63,446 nucleotides of DNA, filler included, from Globobulimina sp. (GCA_003354225.1; 23 parts of 23 records of this genome joined end to end with filler, not necessarily neighbours in it), one strand, 5' to 3'. Shown: positions 17,134 through 60,686, counted from the whole stretch's first letter. The notes: generated from the sequence alone by a model not told the origin. Translations and numbers: made by a program.

Positions 17134-17254
17134 TCATACAAAAAAGTAAATAATCCATTCCAATTATTATCTTCTCGTTTGACTAATTCTTGTTTATATT
17201 TTTATGTTGTTGCAGTCCTTGCAATTTTTGTTTTCTGTGCAAGGATAAAATATA

Positions 17255-17575
17255 TTGACTTTTAGGTTCACACTTCTAAACGATGACTAGCTCACTTCAA
17301 GAAACTCTTAATATCAGGGTTCTCACCTCACAGACGACAGTGCAAGGATAGATTTTTCCAGGAATCTATGCAATAAAGGTAAAAATTTTCTTGAAGTGAG
17401 CTAGTCATCTCTAAAGTCTAAACACTTTTGTGATTGACTAAGTTTTTTAAAGTTTTTTACAGGGGGGCGACCCGGGCGCAGCCCCTAAAATGTAGCCTAA
17501 TGTAGGTGCAAAAAGCTTTAAAAAACTTAGTCAATCACAAAAGAAGTGTTTAGAAGTGTGGACCTAAAAAGTCAA
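17255..17575. mobile_element. Nested inverted-repeat element: outer IR of about 70 bp interrupted by an inner 128-bp element with 23-bp perfect TIRs
   Basis: Inner GATGACTAGCTCACTTCAAGAAA (17282-17304) has its exact reverse complement at 17387-17409. The outer arm 17255-17281 plus 17424-17460 pairs with 17507-17575. TCTAAAC is duplicated at 17275 and 17417. Confidence 0.8.
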
Positions 17576-17582
17576 CTATCAC

Positions 17583-18521
17583 TTATTTTTCGTCATTGAG
17601 AGTCTTGCTAAGGTTGGAGTTACTCGCATTTTCATATTTTTGTTCGAAAAGTTGAGTTTTCGATCGTTTAGCTTGCAATAATGCGTGCTTCAGTTTACTT
17701 CCACCCAAAATATCATTTTCTACCATATATTGTTGTACATTATCAAACGTCAAATGATTTATCAATGTTCCATGACAAATGCAATGCCGTAGCTCTGTGG
17801 AACTCGCATTTTTTACGTTATCATATTGCATTGGAATATCAATGAGATACATTGGTGGAACAACACCAAACTTAATGTGATACGGTAACATTAGATCGGA
17901 TTCTCTTTGTATTATACATACACCATAATGACCAAAACCATAATTCAAATTTAAAGAAATTGCTAAATCACTGCCACAGACATAGAATATTGTGAATTTT
18001 TTATATTGTTTTGGATATAGATTTTTTATCATTTCCTCAATGTATCCAATTTCACCACGTATACTTTGCATACATTGTTGATTTGGATGCCACGGTGACA
18101 CTTCCACCCAATCATTGTCTTCCAATGCAAGCGACAGCATATTTATTCTATGTGTCGCTGAAATTGACAAAGCTCCGAGTTTACATTTGCAATAAGTATC
18201 ATGTGTTGGACTGATAAAACCACCAACTACACGATATTTATTATTGGTTTTCTCAATATGCTGTTTCGACAATTCCATATTGATTATATGCATTCGATGT
18301 ACCGGCGAAAATGTGCCTGTCGCCACTAAAACACATGGCATCAAATCATCTTTGTTATTTGAGATGTAATTATTGTAATTTTTCATCACTTTATGACCCA
18401 ATTTTGTAAATTCGTTTTCATTTTCTTTGATTTCCTCATTTTCAACGCTCACGCTTGATTTCTGCACCTTTTCTTTACTTTTGATTTTTTTAGCCTTCTG
18501 ATACTTGTTTGATCCTGACAT
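17583..18521 (-). CDS. Nicotinamide/nicotinate mononucleotide adenylyltransferase-like (NMNAT/NadD, HxGH-type nucleotidyltransferase)
   Basis: GTFSPVHRMH, VVGGFISPTHDTY, HRINML, WVEVSPW, YVCGSDL and SSTELR. Likely start at ATG 18521 (MSGSNK). Confidence 0.85.
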   Translation of the reverse strand: MSGSNKYQKAKKIKSKEKVQKSSVSVENEEIKENENEFTKLGHKVMKNYNNYISNNKDDLMPCVLVATGTFSPVHRMHIINMELSKQHIEKTNNKYRVVGGFISPTHDTYCKCKLGALSISATHRINMLSLALEDNDWVEVSPWHPNQQCMQSIRGEIGYIEEMIKNLYPKQYKKFTIFYVCGSDLAISLNLNYGFGHYGVCIIQRESDLMLPYHIKFGVVPPMYLIDIPMQYDNVKNASSTELRHCICHGTLINHLTFDNVQQYMVENDILGGSKLKHALLQAKRSKTQLFEQKYENASNSNLSKTLNDEK

Positions 18522-18664
18522 TAGAATCAAAAAAATGGGTACTGTTTTCTGACAAATACGTAAGTAAGTTAAAGTAAAGTTTTTTATGATTTTGTTTGAC
18601 TGCCTAAACCTTAAACGCATCTGCAATGGTTTCTGAAACAAATTGGATATAAGCATCACAATTT

Positions 18665-19251
18665 ATGGGTTATAATAATTTTATTAATTATAAGTTTGGA
18701 TATCCACCAAATAATAAACCATTTGACACTACAAATTCAACTTGCCGACCATATGGATTTTTAGCCGGACAAAGGGTGGAAACACCAGACGGCACTGCCA
18801 CTGCAATTGGTGTTGCACCATTGCCGCCGGCTTATGATTACCAAAATCGCACAGTTAATAATATAGTAACTCCAAATGAATTATTTTTTGATTTAGATGC
18901 TGACGAAAATGGGTTAAATCGAAGAAAATGTTGGCCAACATTTAGACAACAACAGTTTACAGAAAATGGTTTCATTTTATTAAACAATGGCTCAGTGATA
19001 AACATTTGGGGACAAAGTTTCCATTCATTTTCTGGCAAACAATGGTGGAATGATGCAAAATATTTAAAGGATGCACAAGTCACTTTTTTCAATAAATTTG
19101 GTGATCCAAATGATCCACGATATAATTGTATTAAATACAAGAAAAACAATCCAAACAATAATAAAGTTAGCAACACTATAAATGATGCTGACACTGACAG
19201 TGGCAACAAAACAAATAATGACAGCATATTTGGTCTTGATGATGATGATGA
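18665..19251 (+). CDS. Hypothetical 199-aa protein with acidic tail; completes across the junction at 16719
   Basis: FDT...C.PYGF..GQRVETP.G.AT.IGV...LFFDLD resembles a small beta-rich module I recall from protist proteins. It ends DDDDDEDY* after the overlap. Confidence 0.65.
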
Positions 19252-19351
19252 NNNNNNNNNNNNNNNNNNNNNNNNNNNNNNNNNNNNNNNNNNNNTTAAT
19301 TAATTAANNNNNNNNNNNNNNNNNNNNNNNNNNNNNNNNNNNNNNNNNNNN

Positions 19352-20016
19352 TCAGTGATTGGAGAGGTACTTTGTTGCAACAAGCTGTGCAGAATGCAAT
19401 TTATAGGGACGTGCCCATAGGCGGGACATCCGCAGGATGTATGGTCCAATCTTGGTATATTTATACTGCTGACAATGGCACTGTGCATAGCGTGGAAGCA
19501 TTGGAGAACCCATACAATGAATACATGACATTTAGCGATGCGTTTGTTAGGCAAAAATCGGATTTATTATATAATACCATTATTGATACACATTTTGAGC
19601 AACGGAATAGATTTGGTCGCTTGTTTGGATTTGTAGCTCGGATGAGGACAGATCATGGACCGACGGCGGATATTAAAGGCATTGGAATCAATGAGCAGTG
19701 TGCTTTGGTCATTGATTTGGAAACAAATATGGCAGTCACTGTGGGTCCGTTGAATTATGGGAGTGCGGCGTTTATAATCATGCCGGGCGCATTGAACCAG
19801 CCCGATGTCTGTGAAGCAAATACACCGCTGACGTATAGCAATGTAAATGTGCAGAAATTAGACGCATATTTTGCGGATAGGTTTAATTTTGCGACGTGGA
19901 CTGGCGGTGTTTCTGGTGAATCGTATAAAATATCTGCCAATAAGGGGAAGCTTAATAATAGAGATCCTTATGATCCACCAAATAAACGTAAGGTTGATAG
20001 AGGTCATGGAAAATGA
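19352..20016 (+). CDS. Cyanophycinase-like peptidase S51, C-terminal part
   Basis: Nucleophile motif GGTSAG, IIDTHFEQRNRFGRL and GIGINE. The 5' end is truncated. Confidence 0.88.
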
Positions 20017-20132
20017 ACTCGATGGTTAGAAAGGAAATGTTAAATGTTCATAGATTATACAATAGTAAATGTGCAAGGCTATTTATGCAGTTGTCTTAAA
20101 TTTAAAACTTTTTAGTACAGTAACTATTTTTT

Positions 20133-21314
20133 TTGTCCACGATATTTATGAATTCGAAGAAGCAGAACTACAAACTGTATTATTGCAACTGCAGACGATT
20201 AATAATATGTTGTTGCTCTGTCTTAATCATTATTTTATTTATTTTCTATCTTATTTTATTCCAAGCATATCGTATTGGATGTGTTGTATATTCGGCCAAT
20301 AGCAATGGAGTTAAACCAACCCATATTTGTGAGCCGTGGATAAATGTAATTTATGCATTTATTGAAATACCAGATATAATCTCATCAAATAAACAATTAA
20401 TTGAATACAGTCAACAGATAAATACGGAGACTGTCACTGTCTGCACAAATTACCCAAATATTATCGACGGAAATCGCAACCAATATAAAAATATTGAATT
20501 TGTTATTTTATTGTCGCAACGAAGAGGCGGCAGTAACTTTGCGGAGCTGACTTTGTCTCAACATCCACAAATCATAACTGGCCATGAAATTACTATGCGA
20601 TGGTTCCATTTTCATTGCACGCAATTCGTATATAATAAAAAAAATAAATGTCAAGCTAAGTATATGTTATCTATATTAAATAAATGGTTTGTTGATCAGC
20701 TAAATGAATATGGCAAAAACTATAAAAACGATAAAAAACAAGTGTTTTTAGTTAAATTACAAATTGAACAATTTTGGACTTCACATTACAGTGATTTTAT
20801 ACATTATATTTCATGTCAAAATATAACAATCATTCATTATATTCGCAGTGCGCAAATTGCGTCGTATTTGAGTCATTCTATCGATGCAATCGAACGCTTC
20901 CAAACTGGGAATGTTTTAAAAATATTAACCAAAGAGAGAACAAATAAAAATGCGAAAAAAAGAGATCATATTACTGGCAAAATATGGTTAGATCCTGTAA
21001 TAGCAAAACAATATGCATTTAAAATAAATTCACTTCATCAGTCAATCAAATATTTAATACAAAATTATGCATTTAAAAATATTAAATATCAAACATTTTA
21101 TTACGAGAATTTTATTGAGAATAGGAATGCGAAATATTATTGGAAGGCATTACAAGCGTTTCTAGGAATTGATATTGTAATCAATGGAAATGAGTCATGG
21201 ATAAAACGCGAACATCAAAAACCATGTTTTGAGAAAATAGCAAATTGGCAGCAAATAAAGTTTGCATTGAATGGAACAGACAGTGCCTTTGCGTGTGAAA
21301 TGTGGAACTCTTAG
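20133..21314 (+). CDS. Type II membrane sulfotransferase-like protein (Stf0/NodH-like)
   Basis: N-terminal TM, PAPS-loop-like FVILLSQRRGGSNF..LSQHPQI..GHE, IHYIRS, and YENF..QAFLGI. Confidence 0.7.
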   Translation: MSTIFMNSKKQNYKLYYCNCRRLIICCCSVLIIILFIFYLILFQAYRIGCVVYSANSNGVKPTHICEPWINVIYAFIEIPDIISSNKQLIEYSQQINTETVTVCTNYPNIIDGNRNQYKNIEFVILLSQRRGGSNFAELTLSQHPQIITGHEITMRWFHFHCTQFVYNKKNKCQAKYMLSILNKWFVDQLNEYGKNYKNDKKQVFLVKLQIEQFWTSHYSDFIHYISCQNITIIHYIRSAQIASYLSHSIDAIERFQTGNVLKILTKERTNKNAKKRDHITGKIWLDPVIAKQYAFKINSLHQSIKYLIQNYAFKNIKYQTFYYENFIENRNAKYYWKALQAFLGIDIVINGNESWIKREHQKPCFEKIANWQQIKFALNGTDSAFACEMWNS

Positions 21315-21500
21315 TCATATTACTCGGAGTTAGAACTTTTTATAATAATAAATATCAATATATCTCATATTATGTTAAAAGCATCTGCAACTTTCTCAAA
21401 CTTGTTTTATGCGAATATAATCCACTGAAAAAATTGATTTTTCTGTTTAAAAACAGATTTTCACTTTCAAATTAAACTCATTTGGTCCAAATAACCGACC

Positions 21501-22015: not shown

Positions 22016-22115
22016 NNNNNNNNNNNNNNNNNNNNNNNNNNNNNNNNNNNNNNNNNNNNTTAATTAATTAANNNNNNNNNNNNNNNNNNNNNNNNNNNNN
22101 NNNNNNNNNNNNNNN

Positions 22116-24879: not shown

Positions 24880-27475
24880 TGCTGTCTGAATAGGTGCCGT
24901 GTCGCACTTTCCTTAATTTGCGTGTTAAATAACGAAAAATAAGCATACCTTATTCACAAATTGTTCTTTATCCATATTATCAGCATATATTTCACTTTCT
25001 AACGCACCATAAAACAAAGCAGCAGTGGCATCGATTATATTTTGCGAATGTAGATCATTTGGAGTTGGTCTGTTCAGTAACAATTTATTAACCGTCCCAG
25101 ACGCATTTCTTTTATGTTCATTTCTCTGTGTTCTTTGATTCGAATCTAATACAATTCCGCGAGAATTGACTTCTGTCCATGAAGGTCTTTGCGACAACTT
25201 AATGTAGTTACATATGCTCAAAAAATGTACAAAATGACAGAAAAGGAAAGATATGTTGCGACACAATACCTTATTCACAAACTGTTCCTTGTCCATATTA
25301 TCAGCATACATTTCACTTTCTAACGCACCATAAAACAAAGCAGCGTTCGTATCAATAATATTCTGCGAATGTAGCTCATTCGGAGTCGGCCTGTTCATCA
25401 ACATCTTGTCCACCGTGCCAGACGCATTCGTTTTATGTTGCAACCGCTGTGCTCTTTGATTCGAATCCAACAAAATCCCGCGAGAATTAACTTCCTTCCA
25501 GGTCGGTCTCTGTCGCATTTTAGCAATAAACGTTTCTTTATCCATATTACCAGCATACATTTCACTTTCTAATGCACCATAAAACACAGCAGCTTTCGCA
25601 TCGATTATGTGTTGCTTATGTAACTCCTTTGGAGTTGGCCGATTTGTCAACAATTTATTAACAGTAAACGACGCCCTTTTTTTACGCTCCTTGTCAATAC
25701 CAACTACACCACCCATTTTTCGTTTTGTTTTGGTATTTTCATCTTGCTTTTTTTCAGCTGCATTGCCTGTGATAATGGTCTCCGCCTCATTGTGGTTCAT
25801 ATCATCCCATAAATCGAATAATATGTCTTCTTCCCCGTCCTCCTCATCCATTTCCATGTCACTATCAGGCGCGTCGTCAGCATGTCCCATAGTATAGGAT
25901 CGTTGCAGTGGTCTTCTCATATTAAAATCTGTTAAATTTAAATCGGTCTTTGCTGAAAGTGAGGGGTTTTTGAAATGTGACACAATCTTAGTGCTCGGAC
26001 TGAAGCTGTTTGACATTGTCACAGACCGCTTCATCGGCGGCGGCTCGACCACTGCAAATCTGACCGGTGCTTTTTGAGGTGCTTTTTGTTCAAAGTCCTG
26101 TGCTGGTTTCTCGTGCACTTGTTTCTTAGAAACTTGTTTCTGTATAACAAGACACAATGAGTTAGACATTAATTTTACTACATTTTGTCACCTTAACTTT
26201 GCTCAACAAATATTTATCCCTCCACTGGCCAGATTTGCTTTGTTTTTTATGTTTGGGGCCCTCTTTTTCCTCAGTTTCGGGTATATGTTTTTTAGAGACT
26301 TGTTTCTGTGCACAAACACATACAAACGCATAAGAATTTATTTGTTTTTGCTAACACATTAACTCAACTTTGCTCAACAAATATTTGTCTCTCCATTGGC
26401 CAGATTTGCTTTGTTTTTTATGTTTGGCAGTTTTTTTGCTTTGGCTGAAGGAATTAATATAGGCAATTTCGCATTTTTCAGCAATAACAATGTCTTTAAT
26501 ACACCATTCTTGCTCAGGAAATATGTCATACGCCCAGAATATCAAAGCTTTGACCAAATATTTGGACCGCAACATTTGCATTGGATCCTTCAATTTTATT
26601 AAAAATATTTTCGAGTCGAAGATTTCAGCAAAGATTGTCGACATTGACTCGGCTGACATTTTGGTCAATTCTTCGTTCATTGTGATTTGTTTCAGTAAAT
26701 GGAAAATTAACGTCATTAAACCGTAACGGTTGCGATCTTCTGGAACGGCTAAGTATAATGTTTCAATTTTATGTTTTAAATTATTTATAATTTGCATGGG
26801 AATGCCAGACACATCGTCGTCGACATGTTTTGTTCGTTTTATATTGGTTCCACTTGTAATGGAATCAAAAAAAGATATTAAATTTCCAATTTCTTTTTCT
26901 TTAAATATGGTGGAGGGCAAATTGGATAATAAGGACGATAGCAATTTGGCTAAAACGTGGATGTTTTTGTAGTTTTGTAAGTTATTTATGTCATAGGTCT
27001 GTTGTAATAAGTCATTAAATAATACATTTTTTTCATTCTTATCGCCGGCAATTCTGAATATACCCTCAATTTTCTCTAAATTCGGATGGGAATATAAGGA
27101 TTGTAATACATTCCATATTGAATATAAATAATTGGATGGAATCGAGGTTTGGACCTTTGGTCCGTTGCCGTTGGTAGCTTTTGTAAATGAGGCAAATACT
27201 TTTAACCAACATATGAATGATTCGCTCGTTTTAAATCGTAGCGCTAAATCGATAACCGGATGGTTGATAATTAACACATTTTCGTGCTTTTTATCGACGC
27301 TTAATGAGGTTAAATATGTCAAATCTAAAATATATTTTGCGGAGGAATCCATTGCTGTGTTAAAATCTGTTATGCCTTTTTTGAAATGCATTAAGCGACG
27401 ATCTTTTAAACGAAATAATCGAGATTGCCATCTTTTATTTGTTTTTGGTGGTTTCTTTTCTAAAAGGGCTTCCAT
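24880..27475 (-). CDS. PH-RhoGAP protein with multiple C-terminal RPEL actin-binding repeats; introns 26306-26368, 26140-26197, 25198-25269
   Basis: PH (WQSRLFRL..ICW), RhoGAP arginine finger EGIFRIAG, and at least 5 RPEL-like motifs (RPTPKEL..HII, RPTWKEV..GIL). The splice sites join the two ORFs through a 108-nt exon. Confidence 0.85.
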
Positions 27476-33170: not shown

Positions 33171-35833
33171 TTTTGTCGTCGCCGTTTTTGTATTCCCAGC
33201 CCTATTCTCCTTATATTCCTCTTCTTTTTCTTCCTCTTCCTCCAGAGCCTGTACTTGTAAATTAATTCCAGCCGACAGCGATTTAGTTTTTGTTTTTGTA
33301 TTTGTATAAGGTTTCGATTTCAATGGGTTTTCCCACTGTGTCTTTTGTAACTTATCATTATGATAATATTTGGTGCCTCCGTTGTTGGTGATGACTCTCC
33401 AGAATTCAGGCAGTGCCCCTTCCTCCTCCTCATCATCAATATCAACCTCAGTGTCTTCTTGTTCTTTTTCGTCGAGTTTTACTGATTTGGACTTAGGTCT
33501 TTCCCATTGCTTTTGTTCAATGATTTTATTATGATAATACGTCAAACCTTCTTCGTTCACAATCTGTTCCCAACCCGTTGGCAATTCCTCTTCTTCTGTT
33601 TCCGTCTCCGTCTGTTCTGTTAATATCTCTTCCCGTTCCGAAGGCCGGTCCCACTGTGTAATATTATCGCGATCATGATGGTAATACACCAATCCTTCTT
33701 CATTGATAATCTTCCGCCAACCCGGTGGTAGTTTATCTGATATCGGATTTAATTCTATCTCAGACACAGCTGTGTCCGCTATAACCTTTGTATCATTATA
33801 TTTTGTCTCTGCTGCATCCGTTTTATTTGCGAATCCACCACCGGAGCCTTCATAGGATTCGCTATCTTTGTGAATGTGTTGCCCTTTTGGTGATTCTTTA
33901 TCATACGCATAATAACCATCGTCATTCAAATCATTTATTACATCTTTGGCAATGATTAACTGCCACACATTTTTCTCAAATCTCGTCAATAAATGGTTTA
34001 ATTGTTGTTTGCTTAAATTTAAAAATATTTTCACCGCTAAATCATTGTCCGATATTAAATCCAGATGTTCTTCATCCACACCTCGCAAATTCGCGATGAT
34101 TTGTTTACAGCCGTTCACATTTAATGTCTCAATGTCATCTTTGCCATGTTCATGAAACTTATAATATGCGATATGGTCATTGGAACTGTACACAGTGTCG
34201 ATACTCGGCTTCATTTTATTTTGTAAGCTCATATTTCGCAATGAAGCCGGTTGTGTCCATGGAAATGAACCAATCTTATAACTCGTTAAAAAATATTCCC
34301 ACTCTTTTTTTGTACTACGGTTGTTTTGATCGAATTTATTGTACCTCACACACGACCATGTTACCTGACACATGATATCAACCGCAGACGCACTCTCCCT
34401 CTCCAATCCATCCTTATATTTAATAGATTCCACCACATCGTCATAAGACATTATCCCTTCTTCATTCCATTCATGATACTCTACCAAAAAGGCGATAAGT
34501 TCTTGAATCGATGGCGTTGTTGCTTTACATTTACAATAACTATGCAAAGCCTCCTCGTCGGAGGAATATTCGCTACATTTCTGACAATATTTAATGAATA
34601 ATCTGTCCATTATAAATAATGCTAAACCCACAATAATTAATATATGCACCGCAAACAACGCATCATAGCCATCTGAAGTCAATACCTGCGCTTCAAACAC
34701 AACTGTTTCAAATACGAATATTTCAGTCAATAACGCCTGCAACGACATAATCACTAACAAGTTGGCAATATTTAACAGCAGCAAATACGCCGAAAATAAT
34801 AACCATAGCCAATGTTGACTGTGTGCAGATATTTGATATGAATTAAACCGCAAACTCCGATTAAAAAACGAAATGTATAAAATAATAATCACTGTAGTTG
34901 TGGGGATTAAAATGAGTCCGAATAAGGCCGCAACACTTGATATACCAACATATTTTGGAGAAATCCGATTTAAAAACGCTACAAATTGATCCACTCTGTT
35001 TAACATATCCTTGACTTTTTTAATAATTCTCCTGATTTTATCTATCAATTTTTGAATGGTACTATAGATTTTCTTAAACATTTCGGCCAAACGTTTAACG
35101 GTTTTCAATATTCGCTGCAATCGATAATAATTTGCTGCGCCAGAGGCTGCAGTGGGAAAAATTGAGGCAACCAATATGGCCGCAAATGCAGAGACAATCA
35201 AATAACACATAGCTTCATCAGAAATAGCTGTCACCACTTCGATAATATCTAATAATTCACCCACTTCAGCCCAGATATCCTCAAACATATGAAAATAGTT
35301 CTCAATCGTGAAGAATTTGCCGGTGAACGGAGTGGTGTAATCAAAGAATGGCGTAAATCGCATGTCGACAGTAAACCAGTCATAGCTTAATACAATGATT
35401 AAGAAGGGCAAAGCCAATAAAATTAGTATTAATGCAATTTTAGTGATGCCTTGTTTGATAAACCAAAAATGAATGTTTTCAACAATGTTTGTGTATACAT
35501 TTTTAAATGGGGTATAATATCGATACATGGATTTAAAATACAACACGATAATAACTGTAAAACGTAATGCTTCGATTAATAAACATCCAAACCATACATA
35601 GATGCAATATATATGGAGAGAAATGTCACCATCGGACTTAAAATCATATAATAAATTTATGGAGACATTTAGTGAAAATAATAAAATAAATATGCTGCAC
35701 CAATTCGTTTCTACGAGAATACGACGATGGATAATTAAATAAACAATGATTGCTATGGATAATAAACATTTTGCGATGCAGGCGATTATGACAAATAACT
35801 CGGCCGAATCAGTTTTTGTTGCGAGGATTATGC
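33171..35833 (-). CDS. Multi-pass membrane protein with three C-terminal WW domains (partial)
   Basis: Three WW motifs: LPPGW..GLVYYHH..TQWDRP, LPTGW..YYHN..QWERP and LPEFW..YYHN..TQWENP. Several TM helices lie upstream. Confidence 0.85.
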
Positions 35834-38596: not shown

Positions 38597-38927
38597 NNNN
38601 NNNNNNNNNNNNNNNNNNNNNNNNNNNNNNNNNNNNNNNNTTAATTAATTAANNNNNNNNNNNNNNNNNNNNNNNNNNNNNNNNNNNNNNNNNNNNCTTT
38701 CATTTATCCTCCACAGAAAGTTCCATATCAATGTCCTCTGATTTAATTTTTTGCACATTCGTGACCATCGGGCGCTCTTGGAACAGTTTTTCCGGGGCCT
38801 GTGGCGAAAATACCTTACGACTGGGAGATAAAATTTTCATTTAATGCAATTTACATAGTTTTGGTAAAAATCTATCATAGGACAGTTTAGTAAAGAATAT
38901 TAAATTTGATTTGATAATTAATTACAT

Positions 38928-41358: not shown

Positions 41359-41459
41359 NNNNNNNNNNNNNNNNNNNNNNNNNNNNNNNNNNNNNNNNNN
41401 NNTTAATTAATTAANNNNNNNNNNNNNNNNNNNNNNNNNNNNNNNNNNNNNNNNNNNNG

Positions 41460-41865
41460 TTTATACAAACGAGCACAAATATTTGTCGCTGACATCTATG
41501 CCGCATATAAAGGAAACTCAATTGGTAATTTTAAGGATATCAATGAATTGACCTGTTTTGCTGATTATAGAGTGCCACAATTATTGCGTGCTTTAAATAT
41601 ATTGAAATATTCAGAAAGAATATGCGATATAATTGATAAGAAGCAATTAATATATGCTGGATCCAGAGATGAAATATTAATACGGGCTGCAATGATATGT
41701 GCTGTTGAAAAATTGAAAAATAAATTGAATGAAAAAAGGAGAAATGAAGGTAAGAATGAATGCATATCCATTGAGATTGATTGGTGTTTATGGAATCGTG
41801 GAGAACAATTGCACTCACAAAATAAACTCAAACCTCATCACAGAACAATGACAATTTGTTATTAA
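41460..41865 (+). CDS. QNG1: Queuosine salvage protein (DUF2419; queuosine 5'-phosphate N-glycosylase), C-terminal part
   Basis: YKRAQIFVAD, LTCFADYRVPQLL, EILIRA, IDWCLW and PHHRTMTICY. Confidence 0.92.
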
Positions 41866-42012
41866 AAAATGAATATTTAATGCAAAAAGAAACACTTTGT
41901 GCAAGGATATAACCGATTATAACGCATTAATTATTGCAAAAACTCAATTGAAAAACAAAAACAGATCTAGAGAATGCTTGATGTAAATACAAGTCATCAG
42001 TCATAGTACAGC

Positions 42013-42924
42013 TTATTTCTTTGTTTTTTGTTTCCCTTTTTTGCCTTGTTTGGCCTGCTTTTGTTTTTGTTTTGGTTTTTCTTTACGTTCTTCTTTTTTT
42101 ACAGATTTTTCAATGTCCTCTTTTTGTTCTTTCGCTTCCTTACTTTTAGCTGTTAATCGGTCAAAATATGCTTTTCGTTTCTCATAACTCCTCTTCTTTC
42201 TTTTTATTACCTTTCTTTTTAAATACTTTCTTCGCTGTAACACGCCCGGTGTTATTAACCTTTGTATCTTGGGTTTCTTTGTTATTTTATTCCCGCTCTT
42301 TGTCACCACTTTACGTCGAACCACATAATCCCGCACATCATCATGGCGCGATAAATTAAACATTTTGCAGATTTTGCCAACACGTTTTGGCCCCAATCTT
42401 CGTGGATTGATAGTATCGGTCAATCCGGGTAAGTCTGCCTCTCCTCTCTATATTTTTGGCATTAAATAAATAAATAAATAATTATTATTATCCTCGCACT
42501 TAACTTTAACAATGGTAAGGTTTAAGGCAGCTATATCTGGACCGACGATACATCCACGCACTGATTTTCTTCTTCGTTCCCCCTTTCTTCGGGCCTTATA
42601 ACATGGCATTCCTGTGTTTCATTTTTGTGTTTGTTGTTTTGATTTCATTTTGCTGAGTATGTGTATGTAATATGTTGGTGCCGTACCTCTGCGCAACAAT
42701 AATTTGACTCTTTTATTCACCAAAACGCCTTGACGCATAGGAAAACCATCCGAATCATTGCCACCCGTGATTTTAAATACATATCCTTTAAATTCATCAC
42801 CTAAAGAATCGGCAGGTACTTCTTCCGCAATACGTCGATCCATAAATAATTGTAATCGATTCTCATCGTCAATATCAATTTTCTTTTGAGTCCCAGTGGC
42901 TGGGTTGGCGATATTTAATTTCAT
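42013..42924 (-). CDS. RPS6: 40S ribosomal protein S6 (eS6); introns 42612-42686 and 42448-42504
   Basis: [46 protein letters not shown] and PKIQRLITP. Splicing restores the frame. Confidence 0.98.
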
Positions 42925-43162: not shown

Positions 43163-43884
43163 TCAAACATGCTTAATATTTTTATAATCTCTGGAATCAA
43201 TCTCTTCCAATCCATCACTTGTAATCGCATTGTCCTTATCAACTTTTTCTTTCTTAATATCCTTAATTTTTGATCTTTTCGCCTTTAATCCTCTTAAATA
43301 AAATGCAGTAAATGCCATCATTATCAATTGATATATGATAATTCCTCCGCATACGTATAATATTAATTGCTGTGCGATGGTCGCTTCTCCTCTGGCGGCA
43401 TCAATGCAACTTTGTGCATTGTTTGGGTCACATTCAAACTTATCTGCTATTTCTTGTTGTACTTTGACATCCAGTCTGAGCCAATTATCCTCCAATATTT
43501 TATCCAATTCGCTACTTAACACAAAAAATATTATAGCACCTTCACCAATTATCAATACTATCAATACTATTATATACTGTTTTTATTTTGTTTTTAAGTG
43601 AATGTGCAAGGATAATATGTATAAAATACCAATATCAGAGCGGGTCTATTTTGATAACATGCGCCAGTGCAGCCCAATGCAGTGGTTAATAAAACAGATC
43701 CACCCAACACCATTACAATTTGATACCATACTGAACCCAACCAAATGCCAACATTGCTATTTGATTGTTGTATTCCAGCCGCAATTAAAGCCATACTACA
43801 TCCAATTAATAATGCATTCGTTAAAAATATGAATTGGCGACAAAATGCATATTTAAACCCAACAGAGAGCAATATATCATGCAT
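43163..43884 (-). CDS. Tetraspanin-like four-TM protein; intron 43577-43629
   Basis: Four TM helices, LGCTGA, and a large loop with FECD..SC. The start codon is uncertain. Confidence 0.7.
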
Positions 43885-44411
43885 TGTTGTGGTCCGACGT
43901 ATATGCCCATGGCGTGCTTGCTTCTTGTTACGAATGCAACAGCAACACATGCTGGTGTAACGAAAGGATGACCTCACTTAAAAATTTAAAGTTAAATTCT
44001 GAAAACAGTTTGTCGAGAATGGGACACACCTGTTCGGCACAAACCAATTTCGAATACATTGAGTCTGAAGAAAAAGGAACGCAGGATATCCAACATTATG
44101 TAGTAATTTCAAAAGACGCANNNNNNNNNNNNNNNNNNNNNNNNNNNNNNNNNNNNNNNNNNNNTTAATTAATTAANNNNNNNNNNNNNNNNNNNNNNNN
44201 NNNNNNNNNNNNNNNNNNNNGAGTACGAACAAATTATTACACATGTTCCAATCCATAATATTTAATAAAAGCACTACATTTTTTGTGTTAACGCTGTTGT
44301 GTCTTTTGTATATTGTTGTTATTGTTTTGTATTTTGTTTTGAAAATTTGATTAAGGTCCATTTTAAGATTTTGATAACAAAAACTTTACTCCTCGCACAA
44401 ACAAAGAGAAA

Positions 44412-45152: not shown

Positions 45153-45164
45153 TTCACGCGCACA

Positions 45165-45175
45165 GTGCAAGGATA
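45165..45175. promoter_or_regulatory. Dispersed non-coding motif GTGCRAGGATA (one of 8 exact copies)
   Basis: Copies at 17237, 17340, 41899, 42489(-), 43604, 45165, 59165 and 60349(-), all intronic or intergenic. Function unknown. Confidence 0.6.
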
Positions 45176-45367: not shown

Positions 45368-46554
45368 CTAGTAATAAAAAAAAAGAATACAAAAAAGCAA
45401 AACTAGTAATTTGTCATTGTAATAATAAAGGTAAAGGCAGTGGATTGTTGCTATTATTATGTATTGGGGATAATGGTGATTTTGTGGTTGATTGCTTTGA
45501 GATGGAACAATCTGATGATAATGAACCAATATCGTCCCTTTCCTTTTCTTTTTCTTTATTTTTATCCAAATAACATTTTGATTTTGCGGATTCATAAATT
45601 TTTTTCATTGCATCTTGAGCCTGATACAACGATGTGTATTGATCGGTTAATTTATTAGAATTTGAATGTAACAAAATATTATAATCCTCTTTCAATGCTT
45701 TTCGAGCCTGTCTCTGTTGTAATATATTTATATTTATATTTGTATTTGTATTGTATGCGATATTGCGATATTAATTACTTAACAATATCAATCCGTGTCA
45801 AAGGTGGATGGTTTTTTGAATCTAACCATCGATGCAATTCATTCTGTTTAGGAAATGTTGGTGAATTTGGTCTTAACACAGCAATACAACATTTTATGTA
45901 TAACAATGATAATTTCATTCGACTCAATCTCTCCCGATCTGAATAGGACAATGACGACAACTCGATGTTATTTATGAATGATGCTCGAAATATCGATGGT
46001 TTCTCCTCTTCTTTCTCGCTCTCTCTCTCTCTGTCGAGAACCTGCTCTTTTTTCTCCATTTCTATTGAATCATTATCATTGTCATCATCTTCGTCGTCAT
46101 CATCAATGTCAATGTCATGATCAAATGAGCAAAAACCATTTCTATTTTTATTTTCTTGCATTCTTTCGTTGTATGATAAATGAGTCAGTGGCGGCCGATG
46201 GAATTCCCACTAAATATTTTTATTTTTATTTTTGTTTTCTATTTTACACAGTGTATTTTGTGTGCACTTAACCATTGGTTTTGAATAATTATACAATGTT
46301 TCGATGTGTACATATTCATTTTTAGGACGTGTTTCTATGTTATCAAGAAAATAACTGTTTAATTTTATTGTTAATTGACGTTTTATGCGTTTCCTTTTTG
46401 CACAGTTTCCATTCTCATTTTTTCTCATTTTTTTTCGTGGCGGTACATGATTGTTGCCATGCGGCACAATGTTTTCATTCGTTTTGTTGTGTGGCAGCGA
46501 TACAGTTTGTCTTTTTCTTTTGTTAACATTGGCTGCCATTGTGAAAGTTGCCAT
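45368..46554 (-). CDS. Hypothetical intron-containing protein with NLS-like basic and acidic tracts
   Basis: Consecutive same-strand ORFs (46210-46554, 45775-46161, 45414-45695) separated by AT-rich intron-like gaps; the exact structure is unresolved. Confidence 0.45.
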
Positions 46555-47097
46555 GATTAAACAAGAATAAAACTTTAATTTGTCGATTATGAGTTAGAGT
46601 GGGTACTGCCGCAGTACAGTAAATGTTGTTGTACATGGAAAACAGTCAAAATACTAGATATGTAATACACTTGTAACTACTGGAAGATATAAATAATAAG
46701 CCAGGCCAGCAAATAAATCATAAAAAAAAAATATAAATAATAAATCAGTGAATCAGTGAATGGAAACAATTGTTCTTATTTCATGTGTTAACTTAATAAA
46801 ATAGTCTCTGAACTCAGCTTTAGTTTTCATGTCTAATATAAATGAATTTGGATTTTGATTTTGTTTATTTTGTAACTGATTANNNNNNNNNNNNNNNNNN
46901 NNNNNNNNNNNNNNNNNNNNNNNNNNTTAATTAATTAANNNNNNNNNNNNNNNNNNNNNNNNNNNNNNNNNNNNNNNNNNNNGAAATCCTGTCAGAGCAT
47001 GATTTTGACCATACAATTGATACATTGATATCTGATAAATCGATTACAAATTATGAGCATTTAGCATAGACGTCATATATCATCGAAAACAATTAAC

Positions 47098-55265: not shown

Positions 55266-55488
55266 AACCCAATAACTGGTATGAAAGGAATTGCAATGGG
55301 CGCCATCCCAATAACTGGTATGAAATGAATTGCGATGGGCGCCATCCCAATAACTGGTATGAAAGGAATTGAAATGGGCGCCATCCCAATAACTGGTATG
55401 AAATGAATTGCGACGGGCGACATCCCAATAACTGGTATGTAAGGAATTGCGATGGGCGCCAACCCAATAACTGGTATGCAATGAATTG
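55266..55488. repeat. 39-bp tandem minisatellite (about 5.7 visible copies) with an alternating 78-bp higher-order pattern
   Basis: Unit CCCAATAACTGGTATGAAAKGAATTGCRATGGGCGCCAT at 55268, 55307, 55346, 55385, 55424 and 55463 (partial). There are no spacers, and the array runs off the contig start. Confidence 0.95.
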
Positions 55489-58026
55489 AATGGACCCAGG
55501 AATGAAATATCAAGGTTAAGGCAGAGGAAGAGGAAGCAAGTGAAAGTCTCTTGAGCCGGCGCACTTTATGCGTTCTTATGAAACAACATTTTTATGCGTT
55601 TTTATTTTTATAATTTTATGTTACTAAAGTTTCTCAGTCTCAGTCACAAAACGCACACCGCCGTTTTCCCACATATATGCACTTGAGTTCTTAGAATTAC
55701 AATTTGAATTCAAACATTTTGGTTTTGAACACTGCCGTTTATATTCTATCGGAGTACAAGTGTAACATCACCAATGTAAGCTCTTAAGTCAGATTTTCTT
55801 CTCTACAGTTTATGTATGTTTGTATATGATTGAATGATAGCACATGTAGTCCTGGACATCATTTCCTTTATGTGCAAATATCAACATATGTAAAGTTTAT
55901 GTGCAAATATTATGCGCCATATAAGTTGATCAATACAGCAATATTTATATATTTTAGATTGTCAGATAAGGTCATAATTATAAGTTATAACGAACACTGT
56001 TTGTCTGTATATTGTTTCTTATTCAGAGCCGTATTTTACGACTTACTTCTTTATGCCAAATCAAGAGTTTTTTATATAAACAGTGTCATATAGCATAATT
56101 GTTGACGGACATTGTCACATTTTATCACGTATTTGAAACACATTATTTTTCAAAACCATTCCACTATAAACTAAGTGGTTTCACTGAAGTGAACTAAGTA
56201 ACTGAACGTTGATGTTGACATTGTGAGTCGATTGAGTTACTCCGTTTGTTTGACCGTTAGGATTGCAACAATACCTGCATACAGTATAGGTGCAGCATAC
56301 TATTGTATGAGTAATATTAAAAGGTAGAAACGCATATTACAATAATAATTTATTTTTACAAAATGATAAATAATTTAATGTTTGTAAACATCACTTAATA
56401 TGTTCTATATAGAATATGCACCAAATTGATTGTATTAATGATTAAACAATAAAATGAAAATAAACATTGATTTTGGATTTATAAATCTGAAATATAATCC
56501 ATTCAAATTTACGTTAAAGTATTCATTCTTATAAATGTTTGATATGATATTTCAAGACATTTTTAGTTATATTAAATGTATTTGATACAATTAAATAGTT
56601 AGAAACAATTCATATATATATTTTATAATACATATTCAGAATTTTCTTTTAATTTCTGTAGATCGAATAAATATTATTATCCATTATGAACATGTGTTTG
56701 TTTGTAATTGATAATAACAGACACGCACATTCATAGAACAATAAAATATTAATTTTCAAAGATGAAAATCCGAACACAACAACAATATGTGCATAGCAGA
56801 TTGAATTAAGAATTAATGACAATCCAACTGCACCCTGTAACAGAACACAACACTATATGTTGACAAGAGTTAATGGTACTTCCAAGTCTAACTTTAATTT
56901 ATCTCTTACTTTTGTTTGAGCGTTGTGATTCAACTAATATTCACATATAGTATTAGTAGGAATTATGATATCAAAATAAGGAATCACTATTATGACATTA
57001 TCACATAATTATCCATACCAGTCGAGTACAATAACGATAATGATATATCATACAAAAAACAGCATTTTCCTATACTAAAAAACAGATTATTTAGCAAATA
57101 TTGAGAATATATTAATTGTAAAAATATATTAAGGAGGTAATAACAGAGATCGGTCTCTTTGTATTGTCAGAACCTGTTGTTACCAATAAAATTATTGTAT
57201 CATAATATGAATATTACCAATGATTTATCCATTTTATTGACAGATAGTGTCAATGCATTAATGTTTCATTTATTGTATGAATATTTTAGTCGAATGTTTA
57301 TTAATGTTTTAGTCGAATATTTATCAATTTATAACTCTCAAATTATGAAAAACGCACAGAGTGAGATTGCAATAAGTGAAGTGGTTTAGCCAGTATTTCG
57401 ACTGCAATTCCCACCGAATATGCCAATATCACATTGGATAATTTTCAAATTTATACCGCAAGAAATGAAACTTCGTCAATTGATGTCTATATAAATGCTG
57501 TTGAAATTATGTTGGATTTAGAGGCTGATGATGATAAATCAACAGATTTAATAATTTTTGCAATATCAGTCGATCCAGAAACCAATATCAGTTATTTTGA
57601 AGGTGATTTAGACAAAAATAAAGTGTCTGTAACGATTTTAAATAATACAAATTCATCAAATCTGAATATTACATTGAAATTCCAATATATAAAGAAGATG
57701 AAGATAATTATTTGTGTTTGGTGGCATGAAGAATTAAATAAAATAAGATTCTTCAGGTTGTTACATAGTCCACTAGGTTAATAGATAAGTCCAATACAAT
57801 TAAATAAGCCCAATACAATTATTCAAATAATATTGATATATTAATAATAGTGAAGTAAATGATAGAATTAATTCAAGTAATACATGAAAAGATGAATTGA
57901 CCTAGGAGGGGGCAGGCCCCAAAAACNNNNNNNNNNNNNNNNNNNNNNNNNNNNNNNNNNNNNNNNNNNNTTAATTAATTAANNNNNNNNNNNNNNNNNN
58001 NNNNNNNNNNNNNNNNNNNNNNNNNN

Positions 58027-59103
58027 ACACAAATAAATACAATTAATATAGATCCAAAGCATAATATTATTAAATATCTAATTAAAGCATTACTATACAA
58101 ACACAAAACCAATGTCGAAAATAAAAAATTGTGCGATGCTGTGTGTAATGCAATTTATTCAATTTATAAGGATGATAAAAACCGGAATCGTTTTGATAAA
58201 TTAACAGAATTTGATTCCAGTTTACAATATAAATCATTTTGGTATAAATTGGAATCAATATCGAATGCCAAAGTATCATTTAATTGTGACACTGCGTCAT
58301 TATTTGCTGCCAAAATTCTAAGAATTAAAAATAACGCTGTCACTTTAAGTAATTTTCCTGCGTTAGATCTCGATGTGAAATATATTGGCAATCCATATGT
58401 TATTATTATTGGCATTGCAAAATATAAAGTTTATTCGGATTTAAATGCAGTTAATACCGATATTGATAAAATGAAGAAATTATGGTCAGATGTTTATAAA
58501 TATAAAAATGTATCTTGTATCACTGACGAAGTGAAGGAAAATTTGACCAAAGATGGGGTCAATGCTTATTTAAACAAACAAAGAGCTATTATTGAACAAA
58601 GCGGTGACATCGATTCGCTCATTTTTATATTTTCAGGACATGGGAGCGAAAAAGGGTTTGCTTGTTATGATTCAGCATGTATTACATATAAGGAATTACA
58701 AAATAAGTTCAGTGCAACAGAATGTGTCACATTGAAAGGTAAACCAAAGGTGTATTATATTGATTGTTGCCGTGGCGGGAATGCTATTCATTTTGTGGAA
58801 GAGAAGGAAACTGAGCAGTTAATGAAGGGGCCAATGAATGATCGAAAAATGTATATTAATGAAGTAACAGATTTTTATTTGCATTTTGCAACGTGTGACA
58901 GTTACTATTCTTTTGTGAAAAACGAGAAGTATGGAAGTTTTTTCATCGGTGCAATTGATGAATGCTTTCGAAAATATCAAAAATTGGTAATTGATTTGAA
59001 TATTATTGCCATCAAAATTAATGCCATCGTGAATGAAAGAAAAGGAGGAAAACAGACACCGGAAATTCACAATAGATTGACATATTCGGTGTGTTTTGGT
59101 TAG
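58027..59103 (+). CDS. Caspase-like cysteine protease (peptidase C14), 5' truncated
   Basis: Catalytic His in FIFSGHG and catalytic Cys in GKPKVYYIDCCRG (compare caspase KPKxFFIQACRG); p10-like DFYLHFAT, GSFFI and KQTPE. Confidence 0.88.
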   Translation, partial: TQINTINIDPKHNIIKYLIKALLYKHKTNVENKKLCDAVCNAIYSIYKDDKNRNRFDKLTEFDSSLQYKSFWYKLESISNAKVSFNCDTASLFAAKILRIKNNAVTLSNFPALDLDVKYIGNPYVIIIGIAKYKVYSDLNAVNTDIDKMKKLWSDVYKYKNVSCITDEVKENLTKDGVNAYLNKQRAIIEQSGDIDSLIFIFSGHGSEKGFACYDSACITYKELQNKFSATECVTLKGKPKVYYIDCCRGGNAIHFVEEKETEQLMKGPMNDRKMYINEVTDFYLHFATCDSYYSFVKNEKYGSFFIGAIDECFRKYQKLVIDLNIIAIKINAIVNERKGGKQTPEIHNRLTYSVCFG

Positions 59104-59263
59104 GTATGGCATATAAAATATACATTTTTTCATTTTTTTTTATTGCGTAAATCATATGCAGTGAGTGCGAGGATACAAAAAATATAACACTTCAGTTGTG
59201 GTAAAATAAAAACAAAAAACACACAAAAACCTAAGTTTTTACTCCAAAATAAAATAATTCACA

Positions 59264-60686
59264 ATGGATTCGAAATGCGAGGAAACCTTAATCGGGAAAC
59301 TACGCCGCGAGTTCAAACCACGAATCCCATCCATAATCCAAAAACTCTCAACAGTGAAATTCAGCGAAGGAGAGAGCACCTCCTCCTTAGGCAACGAGCA
59401 AGAAATCGAGCATTTATTCCCCATCTCCTACGGCCAACCCATCGTAGATTGCTATCAATCCGTCTCAGTCTCCGACCAAAAAGAAGAGAAGAAATCGGCG
59501 AAAGGCTCCATACGTAACACGCCCTTACGAGTAGGCGTGGTATTATCCGGCGGCCAGGCCTCTGGCGGCCATAACGTGATCACCGGCTTATTCGATGCAC
59601 TCAAACAGTTGAACCCTAACAGCACATTGATCGGATTCACGGGCGGCCCCAAAGGCATAATGATAGACCGCTGGAAAGAATTAACCGCCGACATCATAGA
59701 TCTATACAGAAACACGGGCGGATTCGACATGATCGCCGCGGGGAGGGACAAAATCCAAAGCCAACAGCAAATGCGCGCCTCTTTGAACACCATCATCAAG
59801 AACCAATTGGACGGCTTGGTGATCATTGGCGGCGACGACAGCAATACCAATGCAGCCGTGTTGGCGGAGTATTTCGTGGCCAATGGCAGTAAGTGCACAG
59901 TGGTGGGTATCCCCAAAACCATTGACGGCGATTTGCAGAACGAATATATCGAAGTGTCGTTCGGCTTCGACACGGCGGTCAAGACCTACTCCCATATGAT
60001 TAGCAACATTGCGCGGGACTCTGTGTCTGCGGCCAAAGCGTGGCACTTTGTCAAGTTGATGGGGCGCGATGCCTCGCAGGTGACGCTGGACTGCGCCATC
60101 CAGACACAGCCCAACATCGCATTGATTGGCGAGGAGATCCAGGCGGAGGACATGTTGTTGCACGATGTGACGGACCAAATGGTGGACATCATTGAGGAGC
60201 GCGCGGTGAAGGGCAAGAATTACGGCGTGGTGCTGATACCGGAGGGCGTGATCAACTTTATACCGAGCTTCAAAGTGTCGATTGATTTCCTAAATAATAC
60301 GCTAAAGGAAGGCAGCAAACACGTTAAAATTGTCGAAGGTACGTTTTTTATCCTCGCACATAAAAATTAATGTGTTTGGACTTTCGGACTTTGCCATTTT
60401 GGGATATATAGCGTGCAATGAGTTGAGTGAGAAAATAGAATATGTTCGTCGTTTGTTGAAAGCGTCGTCGCCGACGAATTTATCCAATTTTGATGTATTG
60501 CCATTTGACATTCAAGCACAGCTATTATTGGAGCGCGACCCGCATGGAAATATACAGATATCTCAGGTGCCCATCGAGCAGCTATTTATCTTGATTTGTA
60601 AGCAAAAGTTGCGGCTACGCAGGAAATATGTGGAGAGCGGCGCGAAGTTTCGAGGAAATGGACATTTTTTTGGCTATGACGGCAGG
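59264..60686 (+). CDS. PFP: Pyrophosphate-dependent phosphofructokinase (PFP, long type); intron 60339-60411; 3' truncated
   Basis: LSGGQASGGHNV, IIGGDDSNTNA (the GGDD signature of PPi-specific enzymes), PKTIDGDL, FGFDTA, KLMGR and RDPHGN. Confidence 0.95.

What the first reader, a model, noticed from the sequence alone, without database searches (positions are those of the whole stretch)
17237..60359. Orientation-independent 11-bp motif GTGCRAGGATA confined to introns and gene flanks
Seen: 8 exact copies on 4 independent contigs. Two are at 17237 and 17340 (circular unit). Three follow stop codons: 41899 (QNG1), 45165 (13 nt after TBCB) and 59165 (caspase). Three are intronic: 42489 (RPS6, sense), 43604 (tetraspanin, antisense) and 60349 (PFK, antisense). 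One-indel variants occur at about 11697, 11833 and 44387. I noticed none in coding DNA, although most of the window is coding. A rough hand estimate at about 30% GC gives well under 0.1 expected copies, though the motif was picked post hoc. The flanks are unrelated, so it is not a repeat-family body. Inference: a genome-wide DNA-level cis-element, such as a general regulatory factor or nucleosome-phasing site, a replication/amplification mark, or a DNA-processing signal. The last is relevant if the host is a foraminiferan with a dynamic genome.
Basis: partly seen in the sequence, partly recalled or inferred. Interest (0 to 1): 0.78.

Follow-up and report, generated by a model that had tools for sequence, protein, structure and literature searches.

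The report
Strict 11-bp non-coding DNA motif
A sharply defined 11-letter DNA word recurs far more often than chance allows, in either orientation and only in introns and gene flanks of a foraminifer-like protist, so it is probably the docking site of an unknown, very sequence-specific factor.

Summary
GTGCRAGGATA occurs 8 times in 61,246 real bases, against 0.03-0.04 expected. An unbiased k-mer scan also ranks it top at k=9, 10 and 11.

The window is 23 whole short contigs, and the copies lie on 4 of them. All 8 are non-coding:
- three in short introns, two of them confirmed by spliced contigs of public runs;
- three 12-61 nt past a stop codon;
- two in the convergent intergene of a 2,545-bp circular or tandem contig.

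The flanks are unrelated. No local RNA structure is shared. Orientation relative to transcription is mixed.

The word is close to all-or-none: 8 perfect copies, and 1 single-mismatch copy against 1.5 expected.

It is not a U12 splice signal, not a repeat body, and not an RNA element of fixed orientation. No literature match was found.

My best reading, at moderate confidence, is the DNA recognition site of a highly specific factor that marks gene-proximal non-coding DNA, like a boundary, roadblock or general regulatory factor site.

Function, genome-wide extent and conservation could not be tested. No genome is held, and one distant relative's locus lacks the word.

The parts
17237..17247 (+). 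Exact copy (A-type). It lies in the 863-nt convergent intergene of the 2,545-bp circular or tandem contig, 12 nt before a large foldback. A partial inverted copy (TCCTTGCA) lies 14 nt upstream.
17340..17350 (+). Exact copy (A-type) in the loop of a 28-nt-arm hairpin (arms 17282-17309 and 17382-17409) inside the foldback.
41899..41909 (+). Exact copy (A-type) between convergent genes. It is 33 nt past the QNG1 stop (sense) and 103 nt past the RPS6 stop (antisense). Contigs of public runs cover it.
42489..42499 (-). Exact copy (G-type), sense, at positions +6 to +16 of RPS6 intron 2 (42448-42504, minus strand, 57 nt).
   Evidence: records 10 and 15 join 42447 to 42505
43604..43614 (+). Exact copy (A-type), antisense, at +16 to +26 of the 53-nt intron 43577-43629 of a minus-strand tetraspanin-like gene.
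   Evidence: (joint 43576 to 43630 in 4 of 4 runs)
45165..45175 (+). Exact copy (A-type), sense, 12 nt past the TBCB stop codon. The next ORFs downstream are on the minus strand, so this is probably a convergent intergene, but the partner gene is unverified.
59165..59175 (+). Exact copy (G-type) in a 160-nt tandem intergene. It is 61 nt past the metacaspase stop and 88 nt before the PFK ATG at 59264.
60349..60359 (-). Exact copy (G-type), antisense, at +11 to +21 of the 73-nt PFK intron 60339-60411. The intron is inferred from reading-frame continuity, not from RNA.
20071..20081 (+). The only one-mismatch copy (GTGCAAGGCTA). It is 55 nt past the end of a + ORF, either in a tandem intergene or in a candidate 167-nt intron.
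44387..44399 (-). One-insertion variant, antisense, about 13-25 nt before the TBCB ATG.
11697..11709 (-). One-insertion variant in a roughly 900-nt non-coding stretch upstream of a + gene.
11833..11843 (-). One-deletion variant, 136 nt from the previous one and in the same orientation.
17260..17569 (.). Nested foldback next to and around two copies: an outer 22-nt stem and two inner hairpins. Its relation to the motif is unresolved.
   Evidence: -148 kcal/mol, z -12.5; only sub-threshold generic hairpin matches

Best explanation
GTGCRAGGATA is the DNA recognition site of an abundant, very sequence-specific factor, most simply a multi-domain DNA-binding protein. The factor marks gene-proximal non-coding DNA in this compact, AT-rich genome. 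Because it is read on duplex DNA, it works in either orientation. I infer that it acts as a boundary: it holds a fixed protein or nucleosome-free point at gene ends and inside short introns, and it limits read-through between tightly packed, often convergent genes. This is how yeast general regulatory factors act as roadblocks.

Shown: the excess, the sharp 11-bp limits, the strict sequence, the non-coding and gene-proximal placement, and the mixed orientation.

Inferred: that a protein reads it, and the boundary or roadblock role.
For: - Excess: 8 observed against 0.03-0.04 expected, and top of an unbiased k-mer scan.
- Sharp limits: oriented flanks share nothing beyond A/T richness, and the flank asymmetry test gives p=0.24.
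- Not a repeat: no HSP from an all-against-all blastn of the 23 contigs covers a copy.
- Mixed orientation relative to verified transcripts. The RPS6 intron copy is sense and the tetraspanin-like intron copy is antisense, both introns seen as joins in spliced contigs. The PFK intron copy is antisense.
- Placement: all 8 copies lie in the 23% of bases outside long ORFs. None lies on the three gene-poor contigs 5, 6 and 21, which hold 5,712 of the 13,813 non-coding bases. By hand, 0.59^8 is about 0.015, a post hoc test.
- Gene ends: three of the four intergenic regions with copies are convergent, one partner gene being unverified. The fourth is tandem and none is divergent.
- Strictness: single-mismatch copies number 1 against 1.53 expected. 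Position 5 takes A (5 copies) or G (3 copies). The other CpG-decay product, T at position 4, is seen 0 times among the 9 matches with at most one mismatch. This points to constraint rather than neutral decay.
- Density is 1 per 7.7 kb.
- Passages read in PMC5052057 report that general regulatory factor roadblock sites showed no preferred orientation.
Against: - No binding, chromatin or transcript-end data exist for this organism here.
- A site inside introns, 5-15 nt from the 5' splice site, is atypical for yeast-type general regulatory factors. A roadblock there should hinder the host gene.
- Contigs of both convergent genes run through or into the 41899 copy: X4 record 1 reaches 41955 and X7 record 14 reaches 41876. 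A strict two-way block is therefore not seen, though contig ends are poor evidence.
- Typical transcription factor sites show many near-consensus variants, and this one shows none in excess.
- One relative's TBCB locus (57% protein identity) has no copy in its flanks.
- The sample is only 61 kb and 8 copies.
Confidence: 0.35

Rival explanations
1. RNA-level element. The word is read in transcripts, either by an RNA-binding protein in 3' UTRs and introns, or by base pairing. Pairing could be between inverted copies in one pre-mRNA or with a small guide RNA. The A/G choice at position 5 would then be A-U versus G-U wobble.
For: - All six copies with assignable context lie in 3' flanks or introns.
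- The three stop-proximal copies are all sense to the nearest upstream gene, at gaps of 12, 33 and 61 nt.
- All-or-none conservation with a single purine wobble fits base pairing.
- RPS6 carries a sense copy in intron 2 and an antisense copy in its 3' flank. PFK has a sense copy 88 nt before its ATG and an antisense copy in its intron.
- High-depth RPS6 contigs of run X4 stop at or above 41904, and X8 record 19 starts at 41902, inside the copy. This is a weak hint only.
Against: - Two intronic copies are antisense to their host gene. One is verified by spliced contigs in 4 of 4 runs.
- No shared local structure: only the 17340 copy sits in a significant fold, and the other seven have z between -1.4 and +2.2.
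- Only a minority of genes in the window carry a copy, so it is not a general 3'-end or splice signal. Of 25 adjacent ORF pairs, 21 have candidate introns, and only 3 introns carry a copy.
- An 11-bp duplex is short for long-range pairing.
Confidence: 0.17
2. Mobile-element relic. The word is the outermost end of a transposon's terminal inverted repeat, that is, a transposase binding site. Isolated copies are then solo ends, footprints or sites kept by a domesticated transposase.
For: - The 17237 copy sits 12 nt outside a 310-nt nested foldback (z -12.5).
- A degenerate inverted copy can be read by eye just beyond the foldback's other end.
- A second foldback lies about 150 nt from the two decayed variants on contig 5.
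- Indel-bearing decayed copies are in modest excess: 5 against 1.32 expected, p=0.015.
- Perfect identity without mismatch neighbours would fit recent copying.
Against: - Six of the 8 copies have no adjacent inverted repeat, foldback or shared flank.
- No repeat shared between contigs covers any copy.
- Footprints left by end joining would not keep identical 11-bp limits.
- Only one of the two CpG-decay products is seen, which argues for constraint.
Confidence: 0.15
3. DNA-processing or replication signal. The word would be an origin-recognition word, an amplification mark, or a breakage or rearrangement signal analogous to the ciliate chromosome breakage sequence.
For: - It is strict, orientation-independent, non-coding and non-palindromic, as the 15-mer Cbs is described in passages read in PMC5182062.
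- Two copies lie in the only long non-coding stretch of a 2,545-bp contig with identical 119-nt ends.
- Copies favour convergent intergenes.
- Two of 12 GCRAGGAT cores lie within 15 nt of a contig end (p=0.009). That test is post hoc, both cores are imperfect variants, and one lies inside a contig-spanning ORF.
Against: - All 8 exact copies are internal to contigs.
- Contigs from runs containing spliced RNA cover the 41899 copy, whereas Cbs and its flanks are absent from the expressed nucleus.
- No telomere-like repeats are seen next to copies.
- One copy per 7.7 kb, with three in 1.7 kb, is dense for origins.
- The circular contig could equally be a tandem array. Its second ORF gave no Pfam or Atlas hit that would suggest a replicon protein.
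Confidence: 0.1
4. Chance or artefact, such as an adapter, a chimera or an assembly artefact.
For: The sample is small and the motif was first picked by eye.
Against: - 0 of 100 shuffles and 0 of 150 simulations reach 8 copies.
- The motif is top of an unbiased scan.
- The 41899 copy is present unchanged in a contig of an independent run: X4 record 1 has a single difference, at 41763.
- The adapter fragments seen as loose ends do not contain the word.
Confidence: 0.02

Closest known systems
Yeast general regulatory factor sites (Reb1, Abf1, Rap1) acting as nucleosome barriers and Pol II roadblocks
   Same: A short specific DNA word found in non-coding DNA at gene borders, at a density of the order of one per about 10 kb (the density is recalled). 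Passages read in PMC5052057 report no preferred orientation for roadblock behaviour.
   Different: This word is longer and much stricter, with no excess of near-consensus copies. It occurs inside short introns close to the 5' splice site. It shows no T-tract/A-tract flank signature. No binding protein is known.
Tetrahymena chromosome breakage sequence (Cbs, 15-mer)
   Same: A highly conserved short word with unrelated flanks and degeneracy confined to a few positions. It sits in non-coding DNA and occurs in either orientation between species (passages read in PMC5182062).
   Different: Cbs and its flanks are removed from the expressed nucleus, and telomeres are added beside it. Here the copies are internal to contigs, and contigs from RNA-containing runs cover one. 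The density here is far higher: 8 per 61 kb, against 225 Cbs in a 157-Mb germline genome.
U12-type (minor) intron signals
   Same: The reverse complement contains TATCCTT, the core of the minor 5' splice site as I recall it. Conservation is strict, and three copies are intronic.
   Different: The base before TATCCT is A or G in only 2 of 8 copies, and those two are not at exon borders. The three host introns begin GTTAAG, GTATTT and GTACGT, and the word lies 5-15 nt inside them in either orientation.
Budding-yeast 11-bp ARS consensus (origin recognition word)
   Same: An 11-bp, non-palindromic word in intergenic DNA, favoured between convergent genes (recalled).
   Different: The yeast word is A/T-rich and degenerate. 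No replication data exist here, and intronic copies and this density are atypical.

Membership tests
Dispersed repeat or transposon body | Similarity extends beyond the core into the flanks of many copies | tested here: not met
   No HSP of the all-against-all blastn of the 23 contigs covers a copy, and only 2 HSPs are between different contigs, both elsewhere. Oriented flanks share only A/T richness.
Dispersed repeat or transposon body | Copies occur as terminal inverted repeats with target-site duplications | tested here: inconclusive
   One copy (17237) abuts a foldback, with a degenerate inverted partner read by eye. The other copies have no such partner.
U12-type 5' splice site | The word starts exactly at the exon-intron border, with A or G before TATCCTT | tested here: not met
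   The preceding base is T in 5 copies, C in 1, A in 1 and G in 1. Intron borders taken from spliced contigs and reading frames put the word 5-15 nt inside the introns.
General splice or polyadenylation signal | Present in most introns or most 3' ends | tested here: not met
   Only 3 introns carry it. Of 25 adjacent same-strand ORF pairs, 21 have candidate introns, and RPS6 intron 1 lacks it. Only 3 stop codons in the window are followed by an exact copy.
RNA cis-element (RNA-binding protein site) | Fixed orientation relative to the transcript | tested here: not met
   Four copies are sense and two antisense among the six with assignable context. One antisense case is verified by spliced contigs in 4 of 4 runs.
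Structured RNA family | Conserved secondary structure or an Rfam match | tested here: not met
   Rfam gathering thresholds gave 0 matches in the window. The permissive scan gave only sub-threshold hairpin models on the contig-7 foldback and none on contig 16. No shared local fold was found.
Ciliate Cbs-type breakage signal | Strictly conserved short non-coding word | tested here: met
   comparison with passages in PMC5182062.
Ciliate Cbs-type breakage signal | The word and its flanks are absent from the expressed genome, with DNA ends or telomeres beside it | tested here: not met
   Copies are internal to contigs. Contigs of runs holding spliced RNA cover 41899. No telomere-like repeat is seen in the flanks.
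General regulatory factor or insulator-type protein binding site | Bound by a specific protein that creates a nucleosome-free point | not testable with these tools
   This needs pull-down, DAP-seq, MNase or ATAC data.
General regulatory factor or insulator-type protein binding site | Orientation-independent placement at gene borders in non-coding DNA | tested here: met
   The intronic copies are atypical.
Replication origin consensus | Coincides with replication initiation sites | not testable with these tools
   No replication data.

The most novel reading that the evidence does not exclude
The word is a genome-wide 'punctuation mark' read by strict base pairing or by a recombinase-like factor on DNA, and it guides programmed DNA processing in a foraminiferan. 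Examples would be excision or amplification of gene-sized units such as the 2.5-kb circular contig, or guide-RNA-directed marking of gene borders. It would be an analogue of ciliate breakage or excision signals that is retained rather than eliminated.
Probability: 0.08. Interest if true: 0.9.

Novelty: new member of a known kind. Interest (0 to 1): 0.55.

Why it matters
Almost nothing is known about cis-acting DNA signals in Foraminifera or in Rhizaria generally. If the density seen here holds, a 100-Mb genome would carry more than ten thousand copies. That extrapolates 8 copies in 61 kb and carries wide error. A word this strict and this frequent would be a ready handle for finding its reader by oligo pull-down. 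It would also help to map gene borders in very fragmented assemblies, and to test how a compact protist genome separates closely packed, convergent transcription units. If it turned out to be a DNA-processing signal, it would bear on the long-standing question of genome dynamics in foraminiferal nuclei.

Tried and rejected
- Whole-genome test: no genome is held for this window.
- Earlier findings of this scan: nothing by place, sequence or words.
- Sequencing runs: no listed holder is on record as RNA. That call's tables were truncated (53 differences and 80 loose ends not shown). I therefore could not see whether the diverged runs X7 and X8 keep the 41899 copy letter for letter, or whether poly(A) tails start there.
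- Related loci: a single-protein TBCB scan of the metagenome contigs found no relative. The profile scan gave 80 loci, only one of them close (57% identity), and 0 of 80 hold the word.
- Flank T/A asymmetry: p=0.24.
- Clustering of copies on few contigs: p=0.057 once weighted by non-coding length.
- Shared hairpin context: none.
- GC-rich recurring words (GGCCCCAA and the like): mostly coding and unrelated.
- Rfam: nothing above threshold. tRNAs: none.
- Protein Atlas on the unannotated ORF of the circular contig: no usable hit.
- Literature: the exact strings hit 56 papers, and the 20 listed were primer or oligo coincidences. Two searches on foraminiferal genomes listed nothing on such a motif. 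The original Reticulomyxa genome paper is not held, and no supplements were examined. 'Not described' therefore rests on those searches only.
- A resemblance of the word to part of U6 snRNA is recalled from memory only and was not tested.
Full report
**What the window is.** The 63,446-base window is not one locus. It is 23 stretches of 2,665 down to 2,660 bp, joined by N44-TTAATTAATTAA-N44 spacers. These are whole contigs of a fragmented assembly listed by length, totalling 61,246 real bases. No whole genome is held, so every statistic below rests on this sample. GC content is about 29-41%. The genes have short GT..AG introns.

TBCB's closest database relatives are 57-76% identical and come from EukProt, MMETSP and ENA records. 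One carries a MMETSP tag that I recall, unverified, as a foraminiferal transcriptome. A table read in PMC13746701 lists the one foraminiferal draft genome as similarly fragmented, with similarly short introns and intergenes. A foraminiferan host is plausible, but the species is not established.

**The observation.** GTGCRAGGATA occurs 8 times at exactly the reported places. Dinucleotide shuffles expect 0.04, and 0 of 100 reach 8. Order-3 Markov simulations expect 0.03, and 0 of 150 reach 8. To remove the post hoc worry, I scored all k-mers seen at least 4 times on at least 3 contigs against an order-3 background. The word or its sub-words rank first at k=9, 10 and 11.

Allowing one mismatch adds a single copy at 20071, so 9 in total. 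The one-mismatch class alone is 1 observed against 1.53 expected. One-indel neighbours number 5 against 1.32 expected, p=0.015. The element is therefore close to all-or-none, with a few decayed copies.

Position 5 is A in five copies and G in three. G to A there is one of the two products of CpG decay. The other product, T at position 4, is not among the 9 matches with at most one mismatch. I read this as constraint on position 4 and tolerance at position 5, which is an inference.

**Not a repeat body, not structured.** Oriented flanks share nothing but A/T richness, and a test for a T-rich upstream and A-rich downstream signature gives p=0.24. An all-against-all blastn of the contigs gives 18 non-self HSPs. 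None covers a copy, and only two join different contigs, both elsewhere.

Folding 111-nt windows on both strands shows no common structure. Only the 17340 copy lies in a significant fold (z about -3.5), and the other seven have z from -1.4 to +2.2. Rfam gives nothing at gathering thresholds. A permissive scan gives only sub-threshold generic hairpin models on the contig-7 foldback.

**Where the copies sit.** I scanned 126 ORFs of at least 85 residues against Pfam and read the sequence.

| Copy | Context |
|---|---|
| 41899 | 33 nt past the QNG1 stop (sense) and 103 nt past the convergent RPS6 stop (antisense) |
| 45165 | 12 nt past the TBCB stop; the next ORFs are on the other strand (probably convergent, partner unverified) |
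| 59165 | 61 nt past the metacaspase stop and 88 nt before the PFK ATG (tandem) |
| 17237, 17340 | 863-nt intergene between two convergent ORFs on contig 7 |

Contig 7 has identical 119-nt ends, which makes it a 2,545-bp circular or tandem unit.

Contigs of four public runs laid on contig 16 are spliced, so those runs contain RNA. They skip 42611-42685 and 43577-43629 in 4 of 4 runs. Two records join 42447 to 42505. This fixes two introns:
- RPS6 intron 2 is 42448-42504, with the copy sense at +6 to +16.
- The tetraspanin-like intron is 43577-43629, with the copy antisense at +16 to +26.

The PFK intron (60339-60411, copy antisense at +11 to +21) follows from reading-frame continuity only.

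Long ORFs cover 66-80% of the sample. All 8 copies lie in the 13,813 bases (23%) outside them. Chance predicts about 0.03 copies anywhere, so 'absent from coding' means only that the whole excess is non-coding.

Within non-coding DNA the copies avoid the three gene-poor contigs, which hold 41% of it (0 of 8; about 0.015 by hand, post hoc). They favour short introns and short intergenes. Clustering on 4 contigs is marginal (p=0.057). Of 25 adjacent same-strand ORF pairs, 21 have a candidate intron, and only three introns carry the word. It is therefore not a general splice signal.

**What it is not.**
- Its reverse complement contains the core of the minor-spliceosome 5' splice site, as I recall that consensus. 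But the required A or G precedes it in only 2 of 8 copies, neither at an exon border. The three host introns start GTTAAG, GTATTT and GTACGT.
- An RNA element with fixed orientation is contradicted by two antisense intronic copies, one verified by RNA.
- A Cbs-like elimination signal shares the strictness and the unrelated flanks (passages read in PMC5182062). But Cbs and its flanks are absent from the expressed nucleus. Here X4 record 1 (41459-41955, one difference, at 41763) and X7 record 14 (41876-42003) run across the 41899 copy, and X8 record 19 starts inside it at 41902.
- Artefact is excluded by the same independent contigs.

**What it most likely is.** Mixed orientation, sharp limits, strictness and gene-proximal non-coding placement fit a site read on duplex DNA by a very specific factor. 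Three of the four copy-bearing intergenes are convergent and none is divergent. That argues against a promoter element and for a role at gene ends.

The nearest known behaviour is that of yeast general regulatory factors acting as barriers and Pol II roadblocks. For these, passages read in PMC5052057 report no preferred site orientation. I put this reading at about 0.35, and the roadblock detail is inference.

Several results count against it:
- The intronic copies are atypical for such factors.
- There is no excess of near-consensus sites.
- Contigs read through the 41899 copy.
- The word is absent from the flanks of the one relative's TBCB locus I could fetch (57% identity).

That relative is distant and has a higher GC content, so its lack of the word shows only that the word is not deeply conserved at that locus.

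**Rivals.**
- *RNA-level reading, including pairing (0.17).* The three stop-proximal copies are all sense, the A/G choice fits wobble pairing, and high-depth RPS6 contigs stop at the copy (weak).
- *Transposon-end relic (0.15).* The 17237 copy abuts a 310-nt nested foldback (-148 kcal/mol, z -12.5), and decayed copies exist. But six copies have no such neighbour.
- *Replication or processing signal (0.10).* See the comparison with Cbs above. A post hoc excess of motif-like cores near contig ends (2 of 12, p=0.009) is noted but weak.
- *Chance or artefact (0.02).*

**Novelty and limits.** Searches for the exact strings found 56 papers, and the 20 listed were primer or oligo coincidences. Two searches on foraminiferal genomes listed nothing relevant. 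The original Reticulomyxa genome paper is not held, and no supplements were examined.

I rate this as a new member of a known kind: a short, strict non-coding DNA word. It comes from a lineage whose cis-signals are essentially unstudied. Everything rests on 8 copies in 61 kb. Genome-wide extent, conservation and function remain open.

Noticed in passing
window 16588-19251 (contig 7): The contig has identical 119-nt ends, giving a 2,545-bp circular or tandem unit. It carries a cytidylyltransferase-like (NMNAT-like) ORF on the minus strand and an unannotated ORF of about 200 residues on the plus strand, arranged convergently. The unannotated ORF has no Pfam hit and no usable Atlas hit.
   Followed up: partly
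window 17260-17569: Nested foldback with an outer 22-nt stem and two inner hairpins (28-nt and 37-nt arms). It folds at -148 kcal/mol (z -12.5) and has a GC-rich loop in otherwise AT-rich DNA. It matches only generic hairpin miRNA models, far below threshold. It could be a MITE-like element or a structured RNA.
   Followed up: partly
window 11319-11548 (contig 5): A second foldback with 59-nt arms, 85% complementary and 112 nt apart. It lies in a roughly 900-nt non-coding stretch that also holds the two decayed motif variants.
   Followed up: no
contig ends at 5421-5428, 35821-35828 and 38705-38715: Motif-like cores lie within 15 nt of three contig ends, all reading outward. For GCRAGGAT this is 2 of 12 cores (p=0.009). 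The test is post hoc, the cores are imperfect variants, and one lies in a contig-spanning ORF.
   Followed up: partly
candidate introns across the window, e.g. 45783, 47316, 48819, 42504: Many candidate and verified 5' splice sites are GTT-type (GTTAAGT, GTTTGT, GTTAGT) rather than GTAAGT. Verified introns are 53-75 nt long.
   Followed up: partly
window 45778-46593, minus strand: Two low-complexity ORFs lie in the same frame, separated by a single stop codon at 46210-46212. This could be an intron holding the stop, two genes, or read-through. Neither has a Pfam hit.
   Followed up: no
window 24945-25692, 26111-26440, 55268-55490 and 62394-63011: Internal direct repeats within single contigs (67-94% identity). 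Some fall inside ORFs, for example the RPEL-repeat protein on contig 10.
   Followed up: no
window 17214-17247: A partial inverted copy (TCCTTGCA) lies 14 nt upstream of the 17237 copy, so the two can form a small hairpin.
   Followed up: no
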